Assembly (NCBI RefSeq): GCF_041956535.1
Contig: NW_027192206.1
Location: forward strand, 523,488 to 587,487
Direction of reading: 5' to 3'
Source: Calcarisporiella thermophila CBS 279.70
Lineage: Eukaryota > Fungi > Calcarisporiellomycota
DNA: 64,000 nucleotides
Position numbers and translations under genes: made by a program
Notes under the pieces: model-generated
What the model saw: only the letters and a program-made list of their open reading frames with translations
The model's database searches: none
What the model was told of the DNA's origin: nothing
Part shown: positions 4,214-55,154 of the stretch, one piece after another
Position numbering within the stretch: the first letter of the stretch is position 1
How the letters are laid out: each line of letters opens with the position of its first letter

Positions 4214-7200
4214 TCAATCTAATGCTCGTACTGCCCTCACCCTCCGATCCGCATAGAGGAGCGCTTGGAATGGTCCACACACTCCTGGCTCCCACGTTGC
4301 GAATACAATCACATACTTGCCAGGCTGAAGCAGTACGTTATCTGTTGCTACTCCCTGGATTACGTTGGTGTATGGGCCAGAGGTAGCAACCTCACGACCA
4401 AACACCTGGGTCGGGTGTGCCTCGAAAATCGTTACATTGGTTGTGGGCAGAGGCCGAAGCTGGAGTGTTTGAAGACGGATTCTGAAGATTATGTAAGATT
4501 AGGCAGAGTTACGATAATGAATAATTCTGTAAATTAGAAAACCCACTTGACTGTTGTGACCTCCGACACTTCGAGATAATATCGTGGGTTACGATGATAG
4601 TTTCCGTTGCTTGGACATCCCATTGCAGTAACTCCCTCGATCCTAATAAAAGTGAATATGGAGCGTATTAATAGCTAATTTGAAGTCTCCTTGAATCTTC
4701 CTATACTAACCATTCTCCTTTGATGATTTGCTTAAACATTCCCTATGTCAAACAAAAATGGTAACTGTAAGCAATGCGCTTTGCGATGATAATGATCAAA
4801 GAAACTATACCGCTCCTTCCAAAGGGATTACGCTTGTGGTAAATTTTAAGGTGGATTCGATGCTCAAAATAAATCCACCAACCATTCCAGGCTCAAAGGT
4901 TGATAGCACAATAGTGTAATCTCCCGGCTTGATATCTTTTAACTCGCAGTAGCAAAAGCCATGGCGGTAATCACCCGACTGCGCAAGAATATCTCGAGTA
5001 GACACGCTAAAATCAAATAGGCATCAATTATCTGATACACTTTGCCTTGCAGCAGTCTTAGAATTGTTCCCATACCTCGTGACTCTTTTTCCACCTGGAA
5101 GAAGCTTTACATGAACAGCATGAGTTCGCGGTGCTTCCAACATTAGCAATAGACCCGCTCTGTGGTCTTTGAATTCTCCGGAGGGCGGTAAAATAGAAAG
5201 CCTATACTGAGGGTTATTCATATAACTTGGATAAGAGGTGTTGCCACCTGCAGTTTGTTCTGTCCAGTTGCCCGGTATCTAATTGAAGTACCGGTTGAAA
5301 GTCAGTAATGTTAAATGAATATATGGGATTTCACTTGCGATCACCTTTTTTTTCCTGGGATATTTTTGGGGCACTTCCATGAGGGTAAATGGCGACATTG
5401 AGTAGCCACGAAGTGTAAAATGTAATGACCGCACCTTTTCATGTTGGGAGACAACGACAGTGTATCGCGACACTCCAGGATTTACATTAAACCGAACCTG
5501 ATAATTTGAATAGTTTTCATTCAGTTCAAAAAAAATGGCATCGTGATAAAAGCAAATGCACTTACAAGAATATGCGGGTTATTAACATAAACACCGGGTA
5601 TCATCGGCTTTCCTGGATAATACACCCGCTCTCCATCGGTCCCATCGTACACGTGGAGAGTAATGTAATCGCGATTTTCCTCCTTCACTGTTACGTGCTT
5701 TGTTAAGAGCAACCACATCGGAGAGGGCTTAGAATCCGAAACATTAATTTCAAGTGTGTACTGTGGATTATAGCCAAGGTTATAGATATCTTTTTTGGGG
5801 CCGAGGCTTTCCGGCCATGTTCTGCAAGATATGGATAAGAACTTGTAAGCATATATAGCCGACAGAAAATGCATGGAATATGGTATTTACGAATGCAATG
5901 TCCATCGATGCAAAAATAGCTCGGGGTTCCAGTTCATATGAATCGAGTCGAATTTATCGCACATCGATTCAAAATCAATCCAAAAAATCCCTAAAATTTG
6001 ATTGCATTTTGCTTAATTTAAACTTTTGTTTTCAAAAGACACGACAAAACTCACCGTCATCGACTGCCTGTGCAACAGCATGGTCATAGTCGAGAGCCTC
6101 ACGTAGTTCCGGAGTCCATCTCTCTTTATCGAGGTGGCTGTAGGCACCAGTCCATCGTTTATGACTCCAAGGATTTTTTACTTGGAGTAGCCGTTTGCCG
6201 TTTACCTCTCGGACATCTATTGCAAAGCAAGTTTGCACCAAGAATATCAGCCACGAGCATTAGTGATTTCAGGATTAAAATAAATAATTACCAAGAACAG
6301 CATATGCATGGGTAGGCACTAGGCCTAATTCCTCAGCCTCTTCAGCAGCCATCTCTCCGGTCGCAATTGTAATAAGCGCATCACCTATAATAATATACGC
6401 TTGTAAAATATACATTATGTGTATATTATGGACAAGCAACATACCGTAACGTTGGCCGTCCAAAAGCCGCTTCCATTGATTGTCCATATTAAAGGATTGA
6501 TCGTGAATGAAAATATGCTCCGGTATCCACCCAGTCAATGCGTGGAGATCAATTCCTGGATTCGATCCAGGAAAGTCATAGCCGCCCATTAGCTTCATAT
6601 ACTTGAAAAATGCAAATATAATTAATTCCGTGGCCATTGTAACTAAACTGGATAAAATTACATACAGCCTTCTCGATAATACTAGGCCACAGTTCATTTT
6701 TATTTGTCGAATAAGTACACATAAGCGTCCCGCCCTTAGAAACAGGTAAAAAATCGTCCACCACAACCTAATATTTAAAAAATGAAAAGAGTTACGCTGT
6801 TGCATATATGCCTAGAGAAAGTGTTAAACTTGGCTCACCTTTCTTGCAATTCCATTGAAAATAAGCTTAATCATATATTTTCCACTGGGATTATAGCAAG
6901 GTTGTCCTAGTTTGTTTTGAGGATAAATACACCGGGTAATCAACTGAGCGACAAAATTTGAAAGATTGTCAGCCAAGGTCGATAAGTTTCCGAGAGAGGA
7001 AAAGGATAACAAAACCTGTTTTTTGAACGTTCTTTCATACGCAGCACTGACGCATAGTGAAGCAACAAATGAACAGTCCGTTACCACGTCCTAGAATATA
7101 TTGTAAATCCATTATTCTTGCCTTTTATAACCTGCTCAAGCAATCGAAGGATTACCTGTAGTATGTTTTTGCTTGAAATCATATGTATCATTTTTGGATT

Positions 7201-17536: not shown

Positions 17537-18117
17537 GCCAAGAATTGGGGAGTAGAAGAGAATGATGCCGCCTATATATCCAGAAGCAAATAGAGGAGAG
17601 GAGGGCACACGGTTACGAGAGGTTGTGTAAGAGGACGAATGAAACTAGTCAAGCCTCCTTATTCGGCCATAGAACACAAGAATCTTATTATATGCCTTAA
17701 AACAAAACAGCCTCAAGCCATAAATTGCCACCAAGTCGAGAAATCGTGGCTTATTCCTGTCTCAAGCTGAGCCTGGTATGGTATCATTGCCATTCTTCGT
17801 CATTCATGTGTACTTAATCCCCATACCGCACTGTTTCGTTTCCTACCGGATCCCATTCTCATGCTTACTTCCAAAATAGGGCATATAATTCAGAGGCCTC
17901 TTTATATAAAATACAGCCCAATGGAGAGTTGTAGGATGCATAAACTCCTTACTTGTATTAGTAATAGGGATTTGGGGAAAAGACCATGAAATAATAGAGT
18001 GGAGATGCTTCCGAGTATTCAGAAACCCACTTCCCTGCTTGGAGAAAATTAAGTATTAAGTAATAAGCATATTGCAAAAAAGGGTATCATCACAATTTAA
18101 ATTTTTAAAAATGTTAA

Positions 18118-18190
18118 CGCCCGATGTGGGGCTCGAACCCACGGCCTTGGGATTAAAAGTCCCACGCTCTACCGATTGAGCTAACCGGGC
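18118..18190 (-). tRNA. tRNA-Lys(UUU), intronless
   Basis: Reverse complement GCCCGGTTAGCTCAATCGGTAGAGCGTGGGACTTTTAATCCCAAGGCCGTGGGTTCGAGCCCCACATCGGGCG folds to a full cloverleaf with anticodon TTT; T-runs follow downstream. Confidence 0.95.
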
Positions 18191-22218: not shown

Positions 22219-22291
22219 GCCCGGTTAGCTCAATCGGTAGAGCGTGGGACTTTTAATCCCAAGGCCGTGGGTTCGAGCCCCACATCGGGCG
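22219..22291 (+). tRNA. tRNA-Lys(UUU), identical to the copy at 18118-18190
   Basis: GCCCGGTTAGCTCAATCGGTAGAGCGTGGGACTTTTAATCCCAAGGCCGTGGGTTCGAGCCCCACATCGGGCG followed by a TTTTT terminator. Confidence 0.95.
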
Positions 22292-22898
22292 CAAGCGTTT
22301 TTGATTTCAACCTTTACAAACGCCTATTTTTACCCTTTATTTTTGCAAAAATAGGTGGAGTAAAAACCCTCCTTCAAGGTCTTTTAGTTCCACCCTTGAG
22401 CCCATCTAGATAATGCCTTCTAATATGGTGTAGGCCAAATAGGGTATCATTTTGGTAGGGATTACAAGGTCAGAGTTTTCAGAGAGGAAGCCGGCTTCCC
22501 GAACCTACCGCCATCATGCCTCCGACACATCACCTGTTATGTCACCACTCCAAGCTTGCTTGCATGAACGACGGATGCATCAAACCATTGCGCGGGGCTG
22601 CGGGCTACTCTACTTCGCCTCCCCTTGTTTTATTCCATCACCAAAATAAGGAAAAACAACACATTTTATGAACTATTCTAAGTTATTATGAAAAAGGGGC
22701 TATTAAAAACACAATTTTAGAAAATAATTTAAGATGGCATTAAAGGGTAAAACTAAAAACAAAAACAAATAGGTACAAAACTCAATCCACGTTAAGAATA
22801 GGTTGGGCCCATTCCGTCAACGATCAATAGAGGAAGGGGGGTATCCTATCTTCATGGCTGCTAAGCAAATTATAAAGTCTCTTTTCCCCTCCCTCAGG

Positions 22899-41834: not shown

Positions 41835-43249
41835 GGAGGATATTAAACGCGGAGTTGACAATGGGAATGATTTGTTGCGTTTTAGAGATAAGATGGATGC
41901 TTGATTGTGACCGTTGGACAGGCCGGTTTGAGAGCTTTTGTAGATAACGAAATAAATAAATGCGGTTTGAAGTGTCTTTGGCCGCCTTACGAGGGAGAGA
42001 AAGGAGGAGGAATATAAATATACGAAAAAAATGCGGATCCCGCTGATAAGCGATAAATCGTGACGTCGTTTTGCATATCGAACCAAACAAGTTTAGTGCC
42101 ATTTAGAGTTTCCAGAGGGCAGCAGAGCTTAAATAAGACTTATTGCAGGACGCCCTCTGCCTCCACCCCCCTCGCGGCTCATCGCCACAGCCCAGCGGCC
42201 CCAACCTCGCCTCCGCGCTCCACTTCAACAGTCCCCCTCCTTCGCCTCCTCCTCCTCCTCCTCGGCTCTTCTTCCCCTCGACCCGCGCTTCCCCGCATGA
42301 TTTAGAGCTGAGATATGGGAAAAGTCACATGATGCTTATTTGGACAATTAGGGTTCTGGTGTTGCACTTTTCTAAAATGATAATAAGCGTTGTAGAACAT
42401 TCGTCCGATTTTGTGACTGCGGCACGCAGCGGGTTTGGATCCCAATTTCATCTTCCCGGTTTAAGTAAGCCTGCTGACTTTATCCGTCTAAGCGCGTCTA
42501 TTTGAAAAAGGGAGCCCGAGAAAAGCTATCAAAACTCACGGCTGGCGTGAGGAGTCATCTTGCCTGCCATTGGTAAGATAAGTGTAGGCCATTGATTCAA
42601 TAAAAGTGGGTTTCTGCAGAGTGAGGTAATACGCAGCACCTCTCCCTCGAGAGAGAAGGAGGGTAAGGTTGTTCTGGTTACTCAAAGTGACTCTTATCTT
42701 CTATTTCTTGTTGATTCCACATTCAACCTTCACGGCGGTATTGAACTATCACCTTCACTTGTATCCTCGAAATCGATGAATTAATGAAATCCTCCTCTTC
42801 CCTCGAACTCAACTTTGCCTGGCCAATAAGGCGCCCTATAGGGAGAGATAAGTGAGGCACGGTCAAATTGGAAGTTGCTTACCAAATTGCAGAATTAAAT
42901 CTTATGGAATGATTTAATTAAGTTATCTAACTTTGAGAGTAAAATCAGTTTAGTCAAGCCTCTCTGCATTTGCTTTTGTTATTTTTCTATATTTACAATT
43001 CTAGTTGAGTGGGCGGCTATTTTGATGGTATCGACCACATTGGCTTGCATTATTGAAGTTGGCTTCATCTATAGCCTTTTTATTTATTCTTAATTTCAAG
43101 CTATCGGAGTGAGCATTCGATGACAAAAAAGTGCAGCACTGATAGATCAATCTTTGGTCAGGGATAAAATAATTTAGCAAAAGACGATTAATAATTCAAA
43201 GAGCACTAAATAAATTCTTTAATGAAAGGGTGAGTCTACTTTCGCAGGT

Positions 43250-45588
43250 TCAAAAATAGCTACCATTGGATAGTTTGGCGCTCGTAATGAAATCGAACCC
43301 TTCGATGTCTGCAACCGATGCTACCTCAAAATTCACCTCCCTGGTATGGTGCCCGTCAGAGTAGATAAAGGTAGAGCACTCTTCTATATGTATATACTGT
43401 TCCTGCTCGAGTATTTCCGCATATGAGGCGGGTCGGAGTAGGAACACTATTCGGAGCTTGGTGAAATCGTCATCGATGTAGTGTTCGCAGAGCATGCATG
43501 CCTCGTATATATTCCAGGTTTTGAGCTCTTCTATGAATTTTTCGGGGGAGGTCATTTTGACTTGCAAAAGCACCAGCTCGTCAGACTGGGCACTGGGGCC
43601 ACGGTGGAGAATCGCATAATTAATCGCCTTATAAGTCTCAGTTGCGGGTATAAGAAGGTAATTCTTAGACCTCTGTTCAAGGGTATCAAATAGGTGATTA
43701 AAAAGTTTGGGATGGCGTGCGAACGGGTTGACTGAAGAAATATCTATAGTGTCCACACTGTCTTCTTCCAAGGAGTAAAGGTCTTTCTGAAATTAGATCG
43801 CTAAAATCGATATGCCCTTTAGTATGGATGAGGTTGGACTTGTCGTCTTGCTCCAACTTAACCGTGTCAAATTTGATACACCTAGAGGTTTTGGCTTTTT
43901 ATAAAAGGAGCCATTCGACTTCCTGACAAAATCCAGGGCCCACCATACTACCATCAAATGTGGGCGATCCGAGTGATTTGAGAAGGTCATTGAAATGGCG
44001 GCCGTAGTAGGCTCGAACCCCTTCTTTAAAGACCGGATTGAAAAACTTGATTTCAGCGTAGCAAGATGTAGGCGATAGTATCTCGTACATTTACTTCCGG
44101 TCGATTGTGTAAGAACCAGCTTCAATACCAATATCCATGATCGCGGCTATTGCAGCTACCTTCACCTTATCTACATCAACCAACCCAAAATTTCCTTTCA
44201 AAAATTTTAAGTGGTTTTCTTCAATTTCTCCACGAGCACTAGTAAGGAAAGCTTTTGCACGAGCCTTAACCCTGCGGAGGCGAATGGATTCTGAGACTTG
44301 GCTCAAATATCCTCTTTTGGCCAATGAGATAAGATGCTCGCAGAGTCCAGAGAGCAAGTATGGGTAAAACAGGGTAATCTCTCGCATCACATCCAGCACT
44401 TGTTCAGTTGGAAATGCGGCACACTTGCTTGGAGTGGTGTCAATAACCCATGCGACATCGGCAAATCTCTTTTCGATGAAGACTTTAGCTTCGGTATCAT
44501 TAAAAGGAGTCATAAACTGGTATGGCTTGAAACCACTTATCCCATATGGGGGTGTAATTGCGTTGTTGCTAGATGCGCACAGAACCACCACGCGTCCAAA
44601 CAGTCTAAGAACTGTCTGGTAGACTACAAAAGGGTACTCAACCTTGTCTTCCTTCAACTCTTCGAGGTTATCAATAATCCAGATTGGGATCAACTTCTCA
44701 TCGGTGCATAGGTTGTTGAGTTTGTTAAGAAAGATACCAGTTTCTTCGTTTAGGTCGTATTTCCGATAGCTGTATGATACATCGTAGAACTCTTTGACAA
44801 GAGAATGTACTTCACTGTCATCTGGAAAAGCCATGATAATATCACGCAGAAGGAACCGAAACCTTTTGCCGTAGCTCTTAAGAGCATACCAAGTTTTACA
44901 ATCATTGATATATATTACTCGGTAGGTAGGCTCTGTTAGTCGAAGATAGGTGGCAATCTGGAGCAACACGTGGCTTTTGCCAACACCATGTGGACCATGG
45001 ACATAGATTCCCTTGAGGTCACTAGGGCCAACGGCAAAATTAGTAGAAGTTGAAGCAGTACCACTCCCAGCAGTGGTTCGCTGACGGTACGCGGTTGAAA
45101 ACGCCATAGCTAAAAGGGCTTCTTTTTCTAAAAACAAGCCAGAGTTTTCGAGTATAACTTGCCTACTATTCGCTATGTGTTTCGCACGTAAAATTATTTC
45201 ATTAAGTATGGGTTCGGCCGCCTTAAAACGATACAGCGTCTCGTATAATGTGAGGGAATTGCCAATGACTGGCACCGATAGAAAATCGTTTGAAATTTCT
45301 TCATGGGCGCAGTTGACAATTCTAGTAAATTTACATTCATGAAAATCAGTCGCTTTGGTCCTGGAAATAGCATCTTTGCGCATGCTTGAGGATAATATAA
45401 CGTCGTCGATTTCTAATCATTAAAAGCATAGAAGAAAATTGTACTAAATTAGTTAGGGTCGCCAATGTAGTATCGAGCGAGAGGAGGAGGAAATGTGGAG
45501 TTGGAAGATACCTTTACTAAGAGCGTCGTATTCACTTGCGCTCGATTCAGTATCCTCATATGTTCTTTTCGATGGCACCCACGGCATG
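43250..45588 (-). pseudogene. Disrupted Crinkler(CRN)-like P-loop NTPase + restriction-endonuclease-fold gene
   Basis: Walker A GPHGVGKS followed by RVIYINDC..W and Walker-B-like WIIDN; C-terminal YLLIP....YKAINY....LVLLQVK resembles the CR-REase P..N..ID...Q motif. TAA stops at 44091-44093 and 43899-43901, plus a frame change near 43800. Confidence 0.6.
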
Positions 45589-45899
45589 TGCAAGTAACGA
45601 TGCAATTGTGAGCTAGATTTGAACGACTTAAGAAAGCAGAGAAAGACGGCCCATCCAACATTTTTGCAAGCTATATATACAAAAAAGAGAAAATAAAGGA
45701 GGAAAAGTGGGAGGAAAGATGAAAGAAAAGGTGGTAACAATGGCGGAGGGAGTGAAACCAGCAGTGAAAACTAGGCAAAAGACTAGCGCTATGTATTGAA
45801 CTTAATCCAACTTTTGCTGACAGACTGATTCGATACTAGTGTAAAAACAGACCTATCGTAATCTCCAAGTCTTCCATAACCGAAAAAAGATTTCGATTT

Positions 45900-47045
45900 G
45901 TTGCCCGAAATCAGTAGACGGATGTCATCTATGGTTATTCATATTCCCAGGTCTAAGTCATACTCAACATCGGTAACAAGGAAATCAGCAGTTCGTCCCT
46001 AAAGACTCTCCGATATTAGTTTTAATATCCATTACTTCACCGTAGCATTTCTACTTCGATACATAGCCCAATTCCAACAGCAACTTCTTGAACACCCAGA
46101 CCCAAATTCTCCGCAAATTGTTGTCGAATGAAACTATCCGTTGAGACGTTGTTTACTAGGATTCTTGCCGGCACGCTATTCATAATTGCATCGTTTCGGA
46201 ATAAACTATGTTTTCTTGAATCACTCCGTCGTTTTTTTTTCCCAATTTTTTTCGATGATTTTCTCTTTATTCGTCTGACCTCTCTTGTCCGCTTTGCTTG
46301 AATCAGAGTTGTTTGTTGATATCGTGTCCTGTGCTGGCTGTGATCTTTGAGTTCTTTTCTTATTTGGGCAATTTTTGGCAATTTGATGTCTTTCGCCGCA
46401 ATTGAAACACATACCGAACCGTAGGAACTATTGCTTTTGCTTCAAGTTCATTGTTCTTTACGAGAAACATTGTTGAGTTCCATTGTTGTCGTACTATTAT
46501 CCTTGTCGATATTCCGGTTAATTCTTACATTACTGTCGGAATTTGTTGAAAATGTCATACCCCAGTTAACAGTTGTATCATTAGGAACCTCTAATTCAAC
46601 TGCTTCTTAGAGGGTTTTGACAACCTTGTACTGACTTGTATTCTAACTCTGGACTTAAGGCCACTAATAAACATCGTCATCGTCTGCTTGTTGTCATAAG
46701 AATCCAACTAAACAAGGATGTTGCGGAATTGGAAGACGTAATCTTGAATGCTTGGCGAAGTGATGTAAGCTGATTACACAGGACATTTGATAATCAGCAG
46801 GTTCGGAAACCGCTATAAGTTCATTGCCAAAATCTAGCCATATATTTGGTGTATCTGTGCCGAACTTATTTGATTGATACCACTGGTTTGAGGTATCCCT
46901 AAGTACGAAGCAACTATAAAACCTTTCGTTCTTCCGGAATTCTCATTGCTTCAAATAGTGTATCTACTTGCCCAATCCACCTTTGCGCATTTTTTCCGCT
47001 TCGGCCATGAAATGGTGGCAAAGGAATTGAAATAAAGCCTTTTTT
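45900..47045 (-). mobile_element. Degenerate Ty3/gypsy LTR-retrotransposon gag + protease relic
   Basis: PPFHGRSGKNAQRWIGQVDTLFEA; SIQDYVFQFRNIL; FISGLKSRVR; zinc knuckle CFNCGERHQIAKNCP; decayed aspartic-protease region ARILVNNVSTDSFI; many frameshifts and stops. Confidence 0.8.
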
Positions 47046-47757
47046 GAAGCTTTACAAGGTAGTTGAGGTCATGTTTACAACGAGAGAAGTTATCTGCGAC
47101 AGGAAAACTTCAAGAGATTTTTGATTCACCGTATTTTTCCCACTTAATAACACAGAATAATAATAAATAATAATGTATTTTTTCTTGTTCATAGCTACCA
47201 AAATGTAGTGATCACAATTGTAATAAGTACTGTAATAGTAGTATAATAGTACTTGAAAATGAGTTCGGTTCAATTTCGATACTTTCTTCATTTTACTGTA
47301 GTTTTCTAAATTCCTAATTAATTGTTTGTATGAACTGTATTATAAGATCTTATCGAATTGGAATTAACTATTTATGGGATTTTTATAATCGAATTACTTT
47401 TAGGATTCTTTTAAGAATCGAACTTTGTTTAATAAACACTAATATCATCCGAACCTTACTTTTGTTTATATCAACGACTCAATTCACAAGAACTATGATT
47501 TTTATTACATTTGAAGTTCGATTTAATTATTTACGACGAGAATAACCTTAAAAGGGCTTCATATAACAAGGATCAGAAATTATGTGCAAATAAACTATCC
47601 TATTGCTACAATTCTCGTCTCTTTACAATATAAATCCATTTAGGATAGAATATCAATCAATATATATTTTCCCTTAATTTTCTCTTGTTAACTTTCTCCT
47701 TTGGTTTTATGATTTCTTTTTGTGGCCAAGTTCACGCTTCAGTTTTCAATAGTTCGC

Positions 47758-48342
47758 TTACTCTTCCATCGAAATAACCCCGCGAGCAAGTAGAACACGT
47801 TTGATACGTTCTGTAATATTTGTTCCAAGTCTCTTATCCAGCTCCTTGTATGTCTCGATCAGATACAGAGCTTCTTCTTCCGTTTCAACAAGAGATTCTG
47901 CACCCGGAAACGTGGTGGTGAGATAATTCTTATCTAGAGTACTGTATTTCTTCCACAGGTACGGATACACAGTCTCGTTTTTCTCCAGATAATCTTTGAT
48001 TTGGACTCGGAAAAATCGTTGGAGTCTGCGCGGGGTCAAATCATCTGGTGCTATTTTTGATTGCAAGCTCAAATCATCCTTAACGCCAAACTCTTTGTAC
48101 ACGGATTTGACGTCGATTTTCTCGCCATTCATTTCAAACTCTCCAAATACTTTGTTACCGGAGCCGGTAATCGCAGTCTGGAGTGCACAGAACATCAGAA
48201 TTTTCATCCCGTTCTTTGCTTTTATAGTTTCGTAGATTTCCTGATCGGAATACGAATCGGTGCTGATGGGCTTGAGGTCAGAATGGTCTGTAAGATTAAC
48301 AAGCTCGGAAAGCCGTTGCTGGCTAAGATACCGTTCTGTCAT
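47758..48342 (-). CDS. Intact intronless 194-aa ORF, putative viral nucleocapsid-like protein (candidate endogenous viral element)
   Basis: Uninterrupted ORF in AT-rich flanks; motifs DDLTPRRLQRFFR and FPGAESLV resemble the orthobunyavirus-type N motifs (LTxHRL...FPGxEMF) in order. Family call from memory only. Confidence 0.6.
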   Translation of the reverse strand: MTERYLSQQRLSELVNLTDHSDLKPISTDSYSDQEIYETIKAKNGMKILMFCALQTAITGSGNKVFGEFEMNGEKIDVKSVYKEFGVKDDLSLQSKIAPDDLTPRRLQRFFRVQIKDYLEKNETVYPYLWKKYSTLDKNYLTTTFPGAESLVETEEEALYLIETYKELDKRLGTNITERIKRVLLARGVISMEE

Positions 48343-49029
48343 TGTTTAGTATACTACTAACTCAATTTTATACTAATAGGTGCAATGTTGCTTGTTTATA
48401 AGACTCAATAAATATAGTAAATTGGTGAGGAGCAATATATCAAAATAAAGGATTTAATAGTCAAAGAAAATGATCTGATGATCTTATAATGTAATAGGAT
48501 GGTTCATCAGCATAATTTTGATTCTCATATTATGAACCCTGGCTATTATCTGGGAAACATTTGTAATATGTAACCAGACGGCTCACTTGCATTTTTCTCA
48601 TGAATGAAGATAAGGTTTCTGTTTTTAAGCTTGGGACTGCTTAAAAATTATTTTCTTGTCTTTTGGTGAAGTATGGTCTGAGATTTTTCTTCATTTCTTA
48701 TTTAAATCTACCTTAACTTCTTTATCCTCATTGATATTTTATATTTATTAAGGTGAGTATCTCCTGTTTACTTCGTTATTGTTATGATATTAATAAAGAC
48801 CAATCTCTTATTTTCATTATTGCGTTTGACTACGATCTACAGCCCAATGAGTGTGGAACCATTCGCATAATTTAAGTTTGTCCGTGATTTACAGCCAAAT
48901 GCAATGCAACAACACAGTAGCATATGGAAATGTGTTACGTTGTCTGATAAAGAATATAATGGACCAATAAAACATAGATCTCATTAGGGAGATGGAATAT
49001 GGAGATCACTATGACTCGTGCGCATGACT

Positions 49030-49712
49030 AGTTATGAATGAATATCTCACACATTCGCCAACTCGTCAGACAAGTATATGGGACTAATCTAATGACTTTT
49101 TTTGTCAGTGAATGTCGAAATCCCACTATTCCGATGTGGTTTCTTATCTCTTAGCTTATGGATTATATATAATTGAGCTGATAGGAGAGTTTTGCATTGA
49201 GATGTCGAAGTTTCTACATGGGTCTGATCACCCAAATGTAGCCTTATCTTTGAACAAGCTAGCAGAGCTCTATCGCCATCAAGGCAGGTGTTACCGGGGC
49301 TTTGAAATAGAGAGAAAGATTTATTACGATCTTAATTGTACAGTAAGTATCATCCTAAGTAATACCTACTAGAGGAAGGAAAGGTTTTGATGGTGGTTTT
49401 TAGGAAACTATTAATAAGTGATGGTGTATCGATTGCACTAAAAATGAGAGCTCAAGGATGGATCTTCGCAGAGTTATTGGCTCTCAAAAATTTTGCTATA
49501 ATACTAGAGATGTATATCCAAATAGTTTGGCTCAGGCTAATTTCTTAATTATTATTACTTAATCTCCGAATCTGTCTGATTTTTGGTGCATAAACCTCCC
49601 ATATAGCCATCTCTTTGTGCAACCTAGCAATACTCTATACTCCACTGGGCAAATATGACAAAGCAGTACCATTTATTCAATAATTGCAGGAGATTTGGAA
49701 GAGTTTGGGACA
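49030..49712 (+). pseudogene. TPR (kinesin-light-chain/NLR-type) gene relic 1, truncated by integrase sequence
   Basis: LHGSDHPNVALSLNKLAELYRHQGR; AISLCNLAILYTPLGKYDKAVP; stops and frameshifts; 5' part similar to 51570-51830. Confidence 0.7.
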
Positions 49713-50368
49713 GCACTTTCGAGAATCATGCTATTCCGATCGCTGGATACTTAGGGATTTAGAAGACATACGGGCGGATTCATTGATTTTTCTACTGGCC
49801 CAGATTACGAGATGCCGCCAAGAAATACGTGACGAGCTGCGACGTGTACCAAAGAACTAAGACGAGCAACACTCTTCCAGCGGGACTCCTTCAGCCACTT
49901 GATACACCAACTCAGAAATGGCACCAGGTTTCCAAGAACTTAATCACGCAATTCCCTAAGACGAAGAATGGATTCGACGCAATTATGGTTTTCGTAGACC
50001 GACTGACAAAGATGGCGCATTTCGTTCCAACAACAACAGCTAATGCACCAATTATAGCCAAATTATTTTCGACACAGTATTCAGACTCCATGGCCTGCCA
50101 CAAGCAATTGTTACAGACCGAGATCCACGATTTATCAGCAATTTCTGGAAGGCCCTGCACGAATACTTAGGAACCAAACTTGCAATGTCAATAGCATATC
50201 ACCCGGAAACCGATGGTCAAACAGAAAGAACCAACCGCACCCTAGAACAAATGCTGCGAGCATACGTTTCGTACCGACAAACTAATTGGGATGAATGTCT
50301 GACAGCCGCTGAGTTTGCCCACAATAACGCAAAGCAATCATCTACTAAAGTGAGTCCTTTTATCCTGA
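49713..50368 (+). mobile_element. Ty3/gypsy integrase fragment (zinc-binding + rve core), left arm of fold-back
   Basis: FYWP..RDAAKKYVTSCDVYQRTK; GLLQPL; VFVDRLTKMAHFVP; IVTDRDPRF; AYHPETDGQTERTNRTLEQMLR; AAEFAHNN. Confidence 0.92.
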
Positions 50369-50369
50369 A

Positions 50370-50702
50370 TTAGGTACAAAATGGCTCACTTTAGTAGATG
50401 ATTGCTTTGCATTGTTATGGGCAAACTCAGCGGCTGTCAGACATTCATCCCAATTGTTCTGTCGATAAGTCACGTACGCGCGCAGCATCTGTTCTAAAAT
50501 CCTGTTTGTTCTTTTAGTCTGTCCGTCTGTTTCTGGGTGATAAGCGGTTGACATTGCTAGCTCCGTTCCTAAGTAATCGTGCAGGGCCTTCCAAAAGTTG
50601 CTGATAAATCGTGGATCTCGGTCTGTAACAATTGCTTGTGGCATGCCATGGAGTCTGAATACTGTATCGAAAAATAACTTGGCTATAGTTGGTGCGTTGG
50701 AG
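50370..50702 (-). mobile_element. Second Ty3/gypsy integrase core fragment, inverted, right arm of fold-back
   Basis: MPQAIVTDRDPRFISNFWKALHDYLGTELAMSTAYHPETDGQTKRTNRILEQMLRAYV...AAEFAHNNAKQSSTKVS on the minus strand. Confidence 0.92.
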
Positions 50703-51439
50703 TTCGAGTGGATGACGAATCAACGTCATTAAACTAATTGTTAACTGAGCCATAGCACGAATTTGTATTTGGTACGGTAATCGTAACGGTTCCTGAGCAT
50801 GAGCTAGGATTTACCCATTCCCCTAAGACCCCAGAGCACAAGAATTCTTGAGAGACCATCCTTACGGGAATTGCTTGACTGGACTCCTTCAATATTTGGA
50901 CCATTAGTTTAGGACGAGGGACGAAATCTTGATTCCATTGAGGACATTGTAAAATTTTAATTCGCTCAAGTTAGCTTTGGAAGAACTGGTACCCTGGACT
51001 ACATAAATACGTATGCGAGAATTCGTTAAGTAAAACCAAAGCTTGTCCTAGCAAAACATAATCTGGAGTTACCATCTTCATGATTTGATTGATTGTTATT
51101 CAGAACCATTGTGTCAGCACTAAAATCGCCATAGTCAGAAGTTGTTCCCGAATAAGTAATACAATCACTTTGATTTCCATGAATTGTATTGTTTTCAAGA
51201 TTATTTTGATTACAACGGGCTGTCATGTCTCCCTAAATAATAAAGCCAATGACTATCCGTAAGAATAGCATGTGAGCTATTTCGAAGAATTTATCGGCTA
51301 GCGTTTAACAACATATGTAGAATAAGAATCAGGTAAGAAAAAAAGAAAGCATATTTTCCTCTAGAAAATGAATAAGCTGAATCCAATACCCGATTAATAG
51401 TGGTAAAATGAACCTGTGAACCCTTTTCGTCGACTGGCC

Positions 51440-52870
51440 CAATGTGCAGGCTTTAATCGACCTCATTCTCACACTATTCCATGCATTCATCTGGTTGGAT
51501 CACGTCTCGTCGCAAATTTAAGCTTCATTCCCAAATTGCTTTTTGGGTAATTTTGGGTTAGCTCTGAATAAATATCACTTACACATTCGACATTTCTTCG
51601 GTTTGGTCAAGAAATTTCGTCCAGGGTCATTCTTGTCGCGGGATCTCTCTATCCAGCTATATCGAACGGTTGCTTATCTCTTAGTCCAAAAAAAAATATG
51701 TTGGAGTTGAGCAGCTTGCACAGAAGTGCATCGAGATCTCCACAAGATTATATGGACCTAACCACCCACATACAGCCACTGCGTTGAATAATCCAGACAT
51801 ATTCTATGAGGAGCAAGGCAGGTACAACCGGGCTGAGTCACTCTACCAACAAGCATTAGACATATGGAAGAAGATGACTGGGTGCGACATACATACAGCT
51901 CAGTTTTTCAACAATCTGGCTGTAATCTTTCGTCAACAAGTACGACCAAGCCGAGTCACTCTATCAAAAAGCACTGGACATTTTGAAGAGAAAGTTTGGG
52001 CTCGACCACCCCCAAACAGCCTCGATTATTGGCAACTTAGCAGAACTCTATCGTCATCACGGTAAATACAACCAAGCCGAGTCTCACTACCAAAGAGCTC
52101 TAGAGATTCAAAATAGGGAGCTTGGGCATTACCACCCAGATACAGCATCTACTTTGAATAATCTTGCTTCACTCTATGCCGAGCTGCATAAGGACGACCG
52201 AGCCGAGCCACTCTTTAAACAATCACTGGAAGTTCGGACGAAAGTGCTCGGAGCCGACCACCCAGATACGGCTGGAACTTTGGACAACCTAGCAATAATC
52301 TATCGAGAGCAGAGTATGTACGACCAAGCTGAACAATTCCAACTACAATCCTTGGAGATTAGGAGGAGAGTGTTTGGAACTCGCCACCCAGATACGGCCA
52401 GATCTTTGAGCAATTTAGTCGAGCTATACCGGCAACAAGCCAGGTACAGCCAAGTTGAACCACTCTACTTGCAATCACTGGAGATTCGTAAGGAAGCGCT
52501 CGGGAAGTGCCGCCCAAATATAGCCTTAACTTTGAATAATCTAGCCATACTCTATTGTCATCAGCAGAAGCATGGTCAAGCCAAATCCCTTTTTCGACAA
52601 TCCCTGGACATTAGGGGTAGGGTCCTTGGACAGGGCCATCCACACACCGCCTCAGCTTTGAGCAATCTCGCTGAGCTTTATTGTCAACAGGGCAAGTACG
52701 ACTTAGCTGAGCCGCTGCTCAAACGATCCCTGGGCATAACGAAGAGAGTGCTTGGATCTTATCACCCACTTATAACTTCAACCTTGAATAAGCTTGCAAC
52801 CCTCTATCGGCAACAGAGTAAGTATGACAAAGCCAGGTCACCTTTCCGATAATCTCTGTAGATTCTTAAG
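51440..52870 (+). pseudogene. TPR_10/TPR_12 array (fungal NLR-like ligand-binding end), 5' part frameshifted
   Basis: About eight 42-aa repeats HPDTAxxLNNLAxLYxxQxKYDxAEPLxxQSLEIRxKVLG (ORF 51983-52852 open); upstream repeats broken by frameshifts; no intact N-terminal NTPase seen. Confidence 0.75.
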
Positions 52871-55154
52871 AGAATATCCGTGCTTTTCTATCCGCATACA
52901 AAAAGTCCTATCGACCTTTTACCCATATTTCATATTACAAGCATTGCCACTTTCGGTAGTTTGAAATAAATCATTAGCCCTATTTACCTTTATAAAATGG
53001 GAGTTAAAAATAACCCAGTCGAAGGGAAGCGAACTCGCTTCCTATTTATTTATATGTACCCATCCGAGAATATATGAGTGATAATAAATGCTTAGGCAGT
53101 TAAGCTACAACCCGTTTATTTCTTGCTCTTCAAGTGGAGAGCAATCTTATTCGCAACCTTCTAAAATCTCGGTTACCAAAATGTTTAAAGATTAAACGCA
53201 AACCGCCTTGTTTTCATTACTTTTGGAACCCATTCCATAGCAATATACATGGAAGCATCTCAATCAAAGTAATATGTCGTGCTCATAAACTGATAGAAAT
53301 ACTATGTGGTGAAAAGAACCTTTGATAAACTAGAAAGTGCAAGGAGAAAATACAACAACCTTAGTGAATAGAATATACAATCCTATACCAAAGGATTAAA
53401 TCCTTATTAATTAATGATCCAAGCCAAACAGGGTTCTCGAACATCTTGTTATGGTTGAAGAACACAAGCCAGCCTGCTCCGGAAAACCGGATTACTCTAC
53501 TATACCAGATTTGATAATGTTAAAGTTTATTTATTAACAGAGCTACCGATTCGGACTCGCGGCATACAGTTTGTTAAGGTGGGTCGACCTGGCCCTTTTG
53601 ATTGATCATGGGAGTATTTTTTTTGCCGTGCAGCAAAGAGAGATGCATCATTCCCAGCGTCAGGCCCCATGTAATTAATCCGTGGAGAGTTATCACCGAA
53701 ATTTTCAAAATATTAATCGAGCATTAGCAAACTAGGAACGAACACAAAATATTGGTCCAAGAAAGCGTACCTCCACGGATGATAAATCATGATGCGGCAA
53801 GTCCCATTTGTAACTTTGATCTCTGAAGAGGCAATGGCCTTTGGTCTCTTAGGGAAAACAAAAAAAAAGGAAAATTGGATTTGTCATGGTCGGCAAAAGC
53901 ACAAATTATGTGTGTGAAGTTATTCAAAACTTTTCGGTCGCAAATGCATTTTTCCAGGTCTGTGAGATGATGCAGTGTGGCTTTTCGTTCTTGCAATGCA
54001 TTTAAGCTTTAGCCTTTTTTGTTTTTTCAATGCACACGCTGGTCTAAACCCTTAACGGCAGGATAGCATACCCGCTCAGGCAGAGCGGCATATGGGGGGC
54101 AAAGCAATGGTTTCTTCTTGTGGGGGCGATATCTTAACAGATTTGCTTTGTTAGCAATTACACCCGAGCAATTGCCAAGGACAACCTAATTTCTTAGGTG
54201 TTATTATTAAGCAGGCGAGGGGTCTTAGAAATCACCTCTCGATCCCCCCCCCTAAATGCAAAATTGGCTTTCAGATCTGGCGGGTGTGGCCGAGGCCTGA
54301 ACGCCCTAGGCCCAGCAGAGTGGGCGAGGGGGGGAGGGGGGGAACGTGGTGAGTCACGATACAGGCCACTTGCGGTTGCGATTTGCAATAAATCTTTCCC
54401 GCATCTTCTCACGGTCCCATTTCTCAGGCACCGATCTGCAGACAAGCCGGCCGGCCTTAACACGCCGCAGCCTCTCTTGATCAGAATCGGGCCGTAAATA
54501 AAGCGGACATAGCACGCCCACCATGGGCCTATCGGCTCGACAGAGGGGTTGGGGGAAAACGCACCAACTGCTTGGGCGCCGGAGCTAAATCCAAACCGAG
54601 GGAAGAGGAGGGCCGACTCTGGTTTTAGGTTGGCGAAGGAGCTTGAAAAAGAAGCTTACATGGGAACTGCCGTGTCCGGGGAAGAGAAGGGAAGGCAGCT
54701 CCGTGTTCCCGCACGAGCATGCAGCACCAACCAAACAGGAGGCCCATTGGCGCTAGTGGCTAACCGCTCTCGCAAAAGCCTCCTTCCTCTCCCAGTGGCC
54801 TGGTGGACCGACCCAAACCTTATCCGTCGGTAAAGAGGGATTAGCAAAGGCTGCGCGCCAATTGCCGCGCAGGCGCGCCGAACAGAGTTCTCGACCTTAG
54901 CACTGGGAGGGTTCATATGAACAAGCGTGACGGAGCCCTCCGCGCTTTTCCCGTGCAGAGAAAACATAAGGGCCCGCTATATAACCTCGCCATAACCCAA
55001 GATCGCCGCCAGCTCCGAATCCTCTTTGTATCCACTTAACCTCTTGCTCCCAAGTCACCAATTATTCCGCTCTCCACCCTCTTCCCCGGACCGTCGATGC
55101 TAACCTAATATAAAGCCCCCGTCAGCGCTCGTTCCCGGTCCCCCCCCAACTTGC

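What the first reader, a model, noticed from the sequence alone, without database searches (positions are those of the whole stretch)
50040..50702. Fold-back of two different gypsy integrase copies: candidate natural hairpin-RNA transposon silencer
Seen: 50040-50368 (+) and 50372-50702 (-) are homologous integrase-core segments joined tail-to-tail with only a few nt of loop (ttttatcct-gaatt-aggtacaaaa). Both arms end at the same homologous position (after ...AHNNAKQSSTKVS). The mismatches are mostly synonymous third-position changes (cac ccg gaa acc gat ggt caa aca versus cac cca gaa aca gac gga cag act). So the arms look like two independently evolved family members, not one copy that duplicated and decayed. 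Identity is patchy: nearly perfect near the loop and distally, lower in the middle. Established: inverted TE fragments read through from a host promoter can make hairpin RNA and trans-silence a family (maize Mu killer). Inference: read-through from the upstream TPR relic would give ~330 bp of dsRNA, producing siRNAs against two gypsy subfamilies at the most conserved part of pol.
Basis: partly seen in the sequence, partly recalled or inferred. Interest (0 to 1): 0.78.

Follow-up and report, generated by a model that had tools for sequence, protein, structure and literature searches.

The report
Fossil fold-back of two retrotransposon copies
Two dead, closely related jumping-gene fragments in a fungal genome are joined back to back at the same point, likely by a DNA rearrangement; the join would make a long hairpin RNA if transcribed, but nothing here shows that it is transcribed or silences anything.

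Summary
Arms 50042-50369 (+) and 50370-50698 (-) are Ty3/gypsy integrase-core fragments, 85.6% identical, meeting with no spacer on a shared palindromic AATT at the same codon. Differences are mostly synonymous (dN/dS 0.07), even in the well-matched patches, so the arms are two sister copies, not one decayed duplicate. Both are dead (stops, a frameshift, a lost catalytic glutamate). They lie in an AT-rich island of a Mucoromycota fungus, between a TPR relic (+) and an NB-ARC relic (-), with no LTR or target-site duplication. Best reading: two inverted neighbours paired as a stem and the inside was deleted at the palindrome, leaving a fossil. A transcript would fold into a ~330-bp duplex, so by-product siRNA is plausible, more likely from the NB-ARC side than from the TPR relic. 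No reads, genome or close intact family member could be obtained, so junction, expression and silencing are untested. Transposon-derived hairpin loci are a known kind (Mu killer; palindromic siRNA loci of Naumovozyma castellii). The scan noted retrotransposon fold-backs on other DNA before. A side find may matter more: an intact bunyavirus-like nucleocapsid-fold gene 1.4 kb from arm A.

The parts
49721..50041 (+). Copy A outside the stem: integrase zinc-finger (H2C2) and start of core; two in-frame stops, 7 of 40 conserved columns broken
50042..50369 (+). Arm A: integrase core, 1-nt deletion near 50066
50368..50371 (.). Palindromic AATT shared by both arms; axis between 50369 and 50370; no spacer
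50370..50698 (-). Arm B: integrase core of a sister copy; open frame, but the Glu conserved in all compared homologues is Lys; a few more codons of uncertain homology may extend to about 50719
49169..49710 (+).
   Evidence: tblastn, E 2e-4 to 4e-3
50744..51226 (-). 5' part of an NB-ARC (NLR-type) gene relic: ATG at 51226, Asn/Gln-rich N-terminus, P-loop region at 50899-50744, cut off just before arm B; points into the hairpin
51586..52933 (+). Larger TPR-repeat relic (frameshifted; 308-aa open stretch at 51926-52852)

Best explanation
This is a fossil fold-back of two dead sister gypsy integrase copies, likely formed when two neighbouring inverted copies paired into a stem and the inner DNA was deleted across the four-base palindrome, and it would yield small RNAs only as an untested by-product. 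Shown: two lineages, exact register, shared AATT, decay of both arms, unrelated and oppositely oriented gene relics on the two sides, no LTR, no target-site duplication. Inferred: in single-stranded DNA the two copies paired in register; a palindrome inside such a stem is a direct repeat across it, so a polymerase slip or microhomology join there removes everything inside and leaves both copies ending at the same base; further deletions trimmed the outer ends. Inferred and untested: read-through from the NB-ARC relic on the minus strand (or stray transcription on either strand) gives a ~330-bp imperfect duplex that Dicer could cut; I put siRNA production at about 0.35 and a selected silencing role at about 0.12.
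For: Two lineages: dN/dS 0.074 overall; 8 of 11 differences in the two best-matched patches are synonymous, P 0.0004-0.005 under neutral change (patch borders chosen after the fact, six centre codons and the gapped codon left out). Exact register with 4-nt overlap is very unlikely for random ends (rough arithmetic, about 1 in several thousand for a multi-kb element), so pairing must have guided the join. Flanks are not two halves of one gene: TPR relic on + to the left, NB-ARC start on - to the right, as a large central deletion would leave; no repeat of 7 nt or more shared by the outer junctions. The precursor layout exists: L051 holds two gypsy copies tail to tail, 67% identical, 925 nt apart; 3 of 80 related loci carry an opposite-strand pol fragment. 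Yeast inverted repeats at 86% identity and up to 30 kb apart anneal in single-stranded DNA (PMC10164571, passages). No sign of selection for pairing: G-U-compatible mismatches 11 (+) versus 16 (-), p 0.44; each arm keeps its own lesions.
Against: Needs two insertions and three deletions; the intermediate is not seen. Only 4 nt of microhomology are demonstrable, and the homologous site is not unusually palindromic in relatives (0 of 69 in the top 5% of their own core; rank 141 of 330). The yeast paper describes fold-backs leading to dicentrics, not this symmetric deletion; the deletion model is my recollection of Tn10 nearly precise excision, not read here. Arm A looks less decayed inside the stem (3 of 60 conserved columns broken) than outside (7 of 40), p 0.08, or 0.03 if one change shared by both arms is dropped: a weak hint of conversion or selection on the stem. 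Both arms share a Thr where 0 of 118 homologues with the motif have it, inside the longest perfect run; this may be a family trait or a trace of arm-to-arm conversion.
Confidence: 0.5

Rival explanations
1. Copying accident in a retrotransposon particle. Two sister RNAs were packaged together; reverse transcriptase, displacing one genome while copying the other, switched onto the displaced strand at the palindrome, and the folded-back cDNA piece was captured at a chromosome break that also rearranged the NLR relics.
For: One event explains register, two lineages and lack of LTRs and target-site duplication; the mosaic identity fits a family that recombines by template switching; both arms show similar decay (3 and 5 of 60 conserved columns). 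Yeast captures Ty1 cDNA of 140 bp to 5.6 kb at breaks, two discontinuous pieces in 3 of 21 clones (PMC1976456, passages), and captures paired inverted fragments joined by 2-11 nt of microhomology (PMC11724301, passages).
Against: The flanks are oppositely oriented relics, so a separate inversion or deletion is needed anyway. The inverted insertions in PMC11724301 come from one locus (identical arms). No test possible without the genome's other copies.
Confidence: 0.22
2. Functional hairpin silencer. The fold-back is transcribed, diced, and holds the family silent in trans; it is kept for that reason.
For: 281 of 329 positions pair; perfect runs of 46, 38, 26 and 21 bp; 51 of 309 21-nt windows pair fully and 101 with at most one mismatch. 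In N. castellii 74.1% of siRNA reads come from palindromic loci (10.1101/2019.12.12.873604, passages). A gene start lies 528 nt from arm B. Weakly lower decay in the stem (p 0.08).
Against: No intact close family member found: best protein identity 71% among the 120 listed hits, best DNA identity 67-72%, one shared 21-mer in 1 of 80 loci, none elsewhere in the window; these collections would miss unannotated copies in this genome, so this is weak. No strand bias in G-U pairs. Two radical changes sit within four codons of the centre. Both candidate host genes are broken.
Confidence: 0.12
3. One copy folded back on itself (arms at first identical), and one arm was later overwritten by gene conversion from a sister copy during repair of breaks at the palindrome.
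For: Self-priming explains the exact centre most simply; patchy identity; the shared rare Thr; the better-preserved stem part of A (p 0.08).
Against: Every patch, including the best-matched ones, shows a synonymous excess, and differences run to the last codons before the centre, so conversion would have had to replace a whole arm right up to the axis.
Confidence: 0.1
4. Assembly or library chimera: the junction does not exist in the organism.
For: No reads could be laid; strand-displacing amplification makes inverted chimeras (general knowledge).
Against: Read fold-backs give identical arms, not 86% arms with codon-biased differences; the repeat is internal with distinct single-copy flanks in the window; the neighbouring gene is recorded on a 737-kb contig; restriction-ligation at AATT is excluded by 7 further AATT sites in A and 2 in B.
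Confidence: 0.06

Closest known systems
Palindromic (inverted-repeat) siRNA loci of Naumovozyma castellii (10.1101/2019.12.12.873604, passages read; the original 2009 paper was not held)
   Same: [quoted passage not shown] That the palindromes are built of Ty fragments is my recollection, not read here.
   Different: There siRNA output is measured; here nothing is. Different phylum and element family.
Mu killer of maize (PMC2563033 and PMC10827316, passages)
   Same: Inverted transposon sequence inside host DNA, with possible read-through from a flanking gene.
   Different: Mu killer is a duplication of one DNA transposon, a perfect 2.4-kb hairpin with proven siRNAs and heritable silencing of an active family. 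This one is 329 bp, 86% paired, from two decayed retrotransposon copies, with no known transcript or target.
Chromovirus-type Ty3/gypsy retrotransposons of early-diverging fungi (nearest: P0005, Calcarisporiella thermophila, 71%)
   Same: H2C2 plus core integrase, motifs in the same order; most near relatives carry a chromodomain.
   Different: Only integrase fragments remain: no LTR, gag, protease, RT, RNase H, SH3 or chromodomain in the window.
Rearrangements at diverged inverted repeats (yeast Alu inverted repeats, PMC10164571, passages; Tn10 nearly precise excision, recalled)
   Same: Pairing of imperfect inverted copies guides a rearrangement in register.
   Different: The yeast outcome studied is a dicentric chromosome; a stable zero-spacer join of two different copies was not described in the passages I read.

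Membership tests
Mu killer-type transposon silencer | Inverted repeat of transposon sequence that can fold into a long hairpin | tested here: met
Mu killer-type transposon silencer | Arms are a duplication of one element (perfect hairpin) | tested here: not met
   85.6% identity, dN/dS 0.074, two lineages
Mu killer-type transposon silencer | Transcribed through both arms from a flanking promoter | not testable with these tools
   no run listed; a broken NB-ARC gene start points into it
Mu killer-type transposon silencer | siRNAs that silence an active family in trans | not testable with these tools
   no small-RNA data, no genome
Mu killer-type transposon silencer | An intact, closely matching target family in the same genome | tested here: inconclusive
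   none in the window or in public collections; own genome not held
Fungal palindromic siRNA locus (N. castellii type) | Closely spaced inverted repeat in a host lineage with Dicer and Argonaute | tested here: inconclusive
   repeat met; host is Mucoromycota and the phylum keeps RNAi (PMC9963178), but this genome's genes were not seen
Fungal palindromic siRNA locus (N. castellii type) | Abundant Dicer-dependent 21-24-nt RNAs from the arms | not testable with these tools
Ty3/gypsy (chromovirus-type) integrase relic | H2C2 and core integrase homologous to Ty3/gypsy pol | tested here: met
   Pfam H2C2 E 1.9e-6, rve below cut-off; 62-69% identity of the core to six gypsy pol proteins
Ty3/gypsy (chromovirus-type) integrase relic | Chromodomain on the integrase | tested here: inconclusive
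   that part is missing from both copies; present in many relatives
Integrase-made insertion | LTR ends and a target-site duplication | tested here: not met
   no LTR or other pol domain near by; no shared repeat of 7 nt or more at the outer junctions, one 6-mer

The most novel reading that the evidence does not exclude
The AT-rich island is a small-RNA 'trap' of a Mucoromycota fungus: an NLR-relic promoter drives a hairpin fused from two gypsy subfamilies, so one locus silences both, and the same island keeps an intact nucleocapsid gene of a negative-strand RNA virus. It would be a natural two-subfamily retrotransposon killer in an early-diverging fungus and would show that in-register fusion of diverged copies is a route to broad-spectrum silencers.
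Probability: 0.1. Interest if true: 0.65.

Novelty: new member of a known kind. Interest (0 to 1): 0.27.

Why it matters
As a fossil it matters little: it is a clean example of homology-guided joining of two diverged repeats. If it does make siRNA, it is a tractable single locus for asking how RNAi first recognises a retrotransposon family in Mucoromycota, where RNAi and H3K9 methylation act separately on transposons (PMC9963178, passages).

Tried and rejected
No whole genome held. Exact 20-nt pattern from the stem: 0 hits in metagenome contigs. Viral contigs: 24 pattern matches, none confirmed. The one locus sharing a 21-mer (L003) lies in no held genome. Rfam: no match in 46000-54000. Idea that the junction codons form a long natural palindrome in this clade: not supported in 69 usable of 80 distant relatives; untestable for the family itself. 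RIP-like mutation: dinucleotide indices of the insert do not differ from the rest of the window. Restriction-ligation artefact: rejected. Further homology of B to the outer part of A: none. The second inverted repeat (18107-18190 / 22219-22302), first noted as possible transposon ends, is two tRNA-Lys genes. Single-sequence fold of the neighbouring ORF was poor (pLDDT 44.7) and was replaced by an alignment-based model. Literature: searches listed no title on a zero-spacer fusion of two different retrotransposon copies in a fungus; I saw listings plus passages of ten papers only, no supplements, and most subscription papers are not in the library, so this is not a claim that it is unpublished. 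PMC7175516 and PMC7763443 (passages) added nothing specific.

Full report
Observation. The window's largest inverted repeat is the one reported. Aligned with gaps, 50042-50369 pairs with the reverse complement of 50370-50698 over 329 positions, 281 of them Watson-Crick, with a single 1-nt gap in the left arm. Both arms encode the integrase core of a Ty3/gypsy element. There is no loop: both read to the same Asn codon of the conserved 'S-P-F-x-L-N' stretch and share the four bases AATT at 50368-50371, the axis falling between 50369 and 50370. In 70 near relatives with this motif the next residues are Tyr or Ser and then always Gly, so both copies break off at the same point inside the protein. 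As RNA the region folds at -472.5 kcal/mol, against -178.7 for 20 shuffles.

Two copies, not one. Of 47 differing bases in 109 codons, 34 are at third positions; dN/dS is 0.074. Identity is 94.0%, 74.8% and 89.7% in the distal, middle and proximal thirds, and the divergent block was matched by 3 of 200 permutations. If the better patches were leftovers of a once-perfect palindrome their differences should be neutral; 8 of 11 are synonymous, P 0.0004 to 0.005 depending on transition bias (borders chosen after seeing the data, six centre codons and the gapped codon left out). So every part of the stem diverged while coding. In a tree with the 79 of 120 listed homologues that cover the fragment, A and B are sisters (support 100/93), next to a protein from Calcarisporiella thermophila (few columns, 116). 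They are two subfamilies of one family at most, probably with an earlier recombination that made one of them a mosaic (inference).

Both are dead. Copy A runs on outside the stem to about 49721, carrying the zinc finger with two stops and 7 of 40 conserved columns broken; inside the stem it has a frameshift and 3 of 60 broken; B has 5 of 60 broken, including the Glu conserved in all compared homologues (that this is the third catalytic residue is general knowledge) and two changes within four codons of the centre. Natural homologues average 1.4 and 2.1 such changes in the same regions, so the stem counts are only modestly above background. The lower decay of A inside the stem is a weak hint (p 0.08; 0.03 without one change shared by both arms). 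That shared change, a Thr found in 0 of 118 homologues with the motif, lies in the longest perfect run and is unexplained: family trait or arm-to-arm conversion.

Surroundings. The host is a Mucoromycota fungus: a ribosomal protein exon is 97% identical to that of C. thermophila and at most 81% to any other of the 120 listed hits. The repeat lies in an AT-rich island (GC 0.38-0.41 against 0.51 on both sides). Left of A are broken TPR repeats on the plus strand (49169-49710); right of B is the start of an NB-ARC gene on the minus strand (ATG 51226, P-loop region 50899-50744, 46-49% identical to two NB-ARC proteins), then more TPR repeats on plus (51586-52933). No other pol domain, LTR or second family copy is in the window, and no target-site duplication was found. 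The two flanks are thus not halves of one interrupted gene.

How it formed. Random ends would almost never coincide, so pairing between A and B must have set the register. I favour two inverted neighbours pairing as a stem in single-stranded DNA, followed by a slip or microhomology join across the palindromic AATT, which in such a stem is a direct repeat; this deletes the inside and brings unrelated neighbourhoods together, as seen. Support is indirect: tail-to-tail gypsy pairs exist (L051, 67% identical, 925 nt apart; 3 of 80 loci hold an opposite-strand pol fragment, 6 of 80 some inverted repeat of 50 nt or more), and yeast repeats of 86% identity anneal in single-stranded DNA across long spacers (PMC10164571, passages). 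The symmetric-deletion step is modelled on Tn10 nearly precise excision, which I recall and did not read. Against it: three deletions are needed, only four bases of microhomology are visible, and the site is not generally palindromic in distant relatives (0 of 69 in the top 5%). The main rival, suggested to me by earlier notes of the scan on other genomes, is a reverse-transcriptase switch between two co-packaged genomes, with the product captured at a break; capture of Ty1 cDNA and of inverted fragments is documented in yeast (PMC1976456, PMC11724301, passages). Self-fold-back with later conversion, and an assembly chimera, are less likely for the reasons given under rivals.

What it does. 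If transcribed it would be a good Dicer substrate: perfect runs of 46, 38, 26 and 21 bp, 51 of 309 21-nt windows fully paired. The phylum keeps RdRP, Dicer and Argonaute, and Dicer loss raises many transposon transcripts in Mucor (PMC9963178, passages). The likelier driver is the NB-ARC relic, whose start lies 528 nt from arm B with no AATAAA between on that strand (weak, fungal signals are loose), not the TPR relic. But nothing shows function: no reads (no evidence either way), no strand preference in G-U pairs (11 versus 16, p 0.44), each arm keeping its own lesions, and no close intact target in what I could search (best 71% protein, 67-72% DNA, 1 of 80 loci sharing a 21-mer), though the genome itself was not available.

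Comparison and verdict. Transposon-derived hairpin loci are known: Mu killer (perfect 2.4-kb hairpin from one duplicated element, PMC2563033, passages; PMC10827316) and the palindromic loci that give 74.1% of siRNA reads in N. castellii (10.1101/2019.12.12.873604, passages). This locus could work like them but fails the single-element criterion of Mu killer and is untested on every functional one. The tidy zero-spacer join of two different copies is the one unusual trait. New member of a known kind; interest 0.27.

Side finding. [quoted passage not shown] The paper on that virus calls the protein of unknown function and possibly of host or bacterial origin, and the word nucleocapsid does not occur in its main text (PMC11351042, passages). 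An alignment-based model (pLDDT 90.7) matches phenuivirus and discovirus nucleoproteins at the top of both libraries, though with weak Foldseek E-values (1e-3 to 1e-2), and Z 9.2 to SFTSV and Toscana nucleoproteins, tied with potyvirus coat proteins (rmsd 4-5 over about 170 residues). It is likely an endogenised nucleocapsid gene; its link to the hairpin is position only.

Noticed in passing
window 47761-48342 (-): [quoted passage not shown] Predicted fold resembles phenuivirus/discovirus nucleoproteins and potyvirus coat proteins (Z about 9). Likely an endogenised nucleocapsid gene of a negative-strand mycovirus, with homologues in many Mucoromycota genomes; a paper search listed nothing else on it. 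Deserves its own follow-up.
   Followed up: partly
L081:4001-4585 and L082:885-1466: The same nucleocapsid-like gene sits in two Streptomyces genome contigs (63-66% identity; the only 2 confirmed of 98 pattern matches). Gene GC is lower than the flanks (0.58 vs 0.69; 0.54 vs 0.71) but third-position GC is high (0.82, 0.77), and the two loci share only ~950 nt around it: looks like an old transfer of an RNA-virus gene into bacteria.
   Followed up: partly
window 51226-51030 (-): The NB-ARC relic begins with an Asn/Gln/Gly-rich stretch that recalls the amyloid signalling motifs of fungal NLRs (recalled, not tested; no Pfam hit).
   Followed up: no
window 42800-53500: AT-rich island (GC 0.38-0.41) in otherwise GC 0.51 gene-dense DNA, holding a P-loop ATPase ORF with weak STAND/AAA hits (44091-45416, -), an unannotated ORF (43250-43792, -), the virus-like gene, NLR relics and the gypsy relics.
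   Followed up: partly
window 18118-18190 (-) and 22219-22292 (+): Two tRNA-Lys(TTT) genes in opposite orientation flank a 4-kb lower-GC stretch with short unannotated ORFs.
   Followed up: partly
L013:1352-1575 and 2088-2311; L051:2743-3935 and 4861-6052; L064:2302-2840 and 4619-5148: Other inverted gypsy pol pairs in metagenome loci: a 97% inverted integrase duplication with a 512-nt spacer, a 67% tail-to-tail pair, and a 72% inverted fragment.
   Followed up: partly
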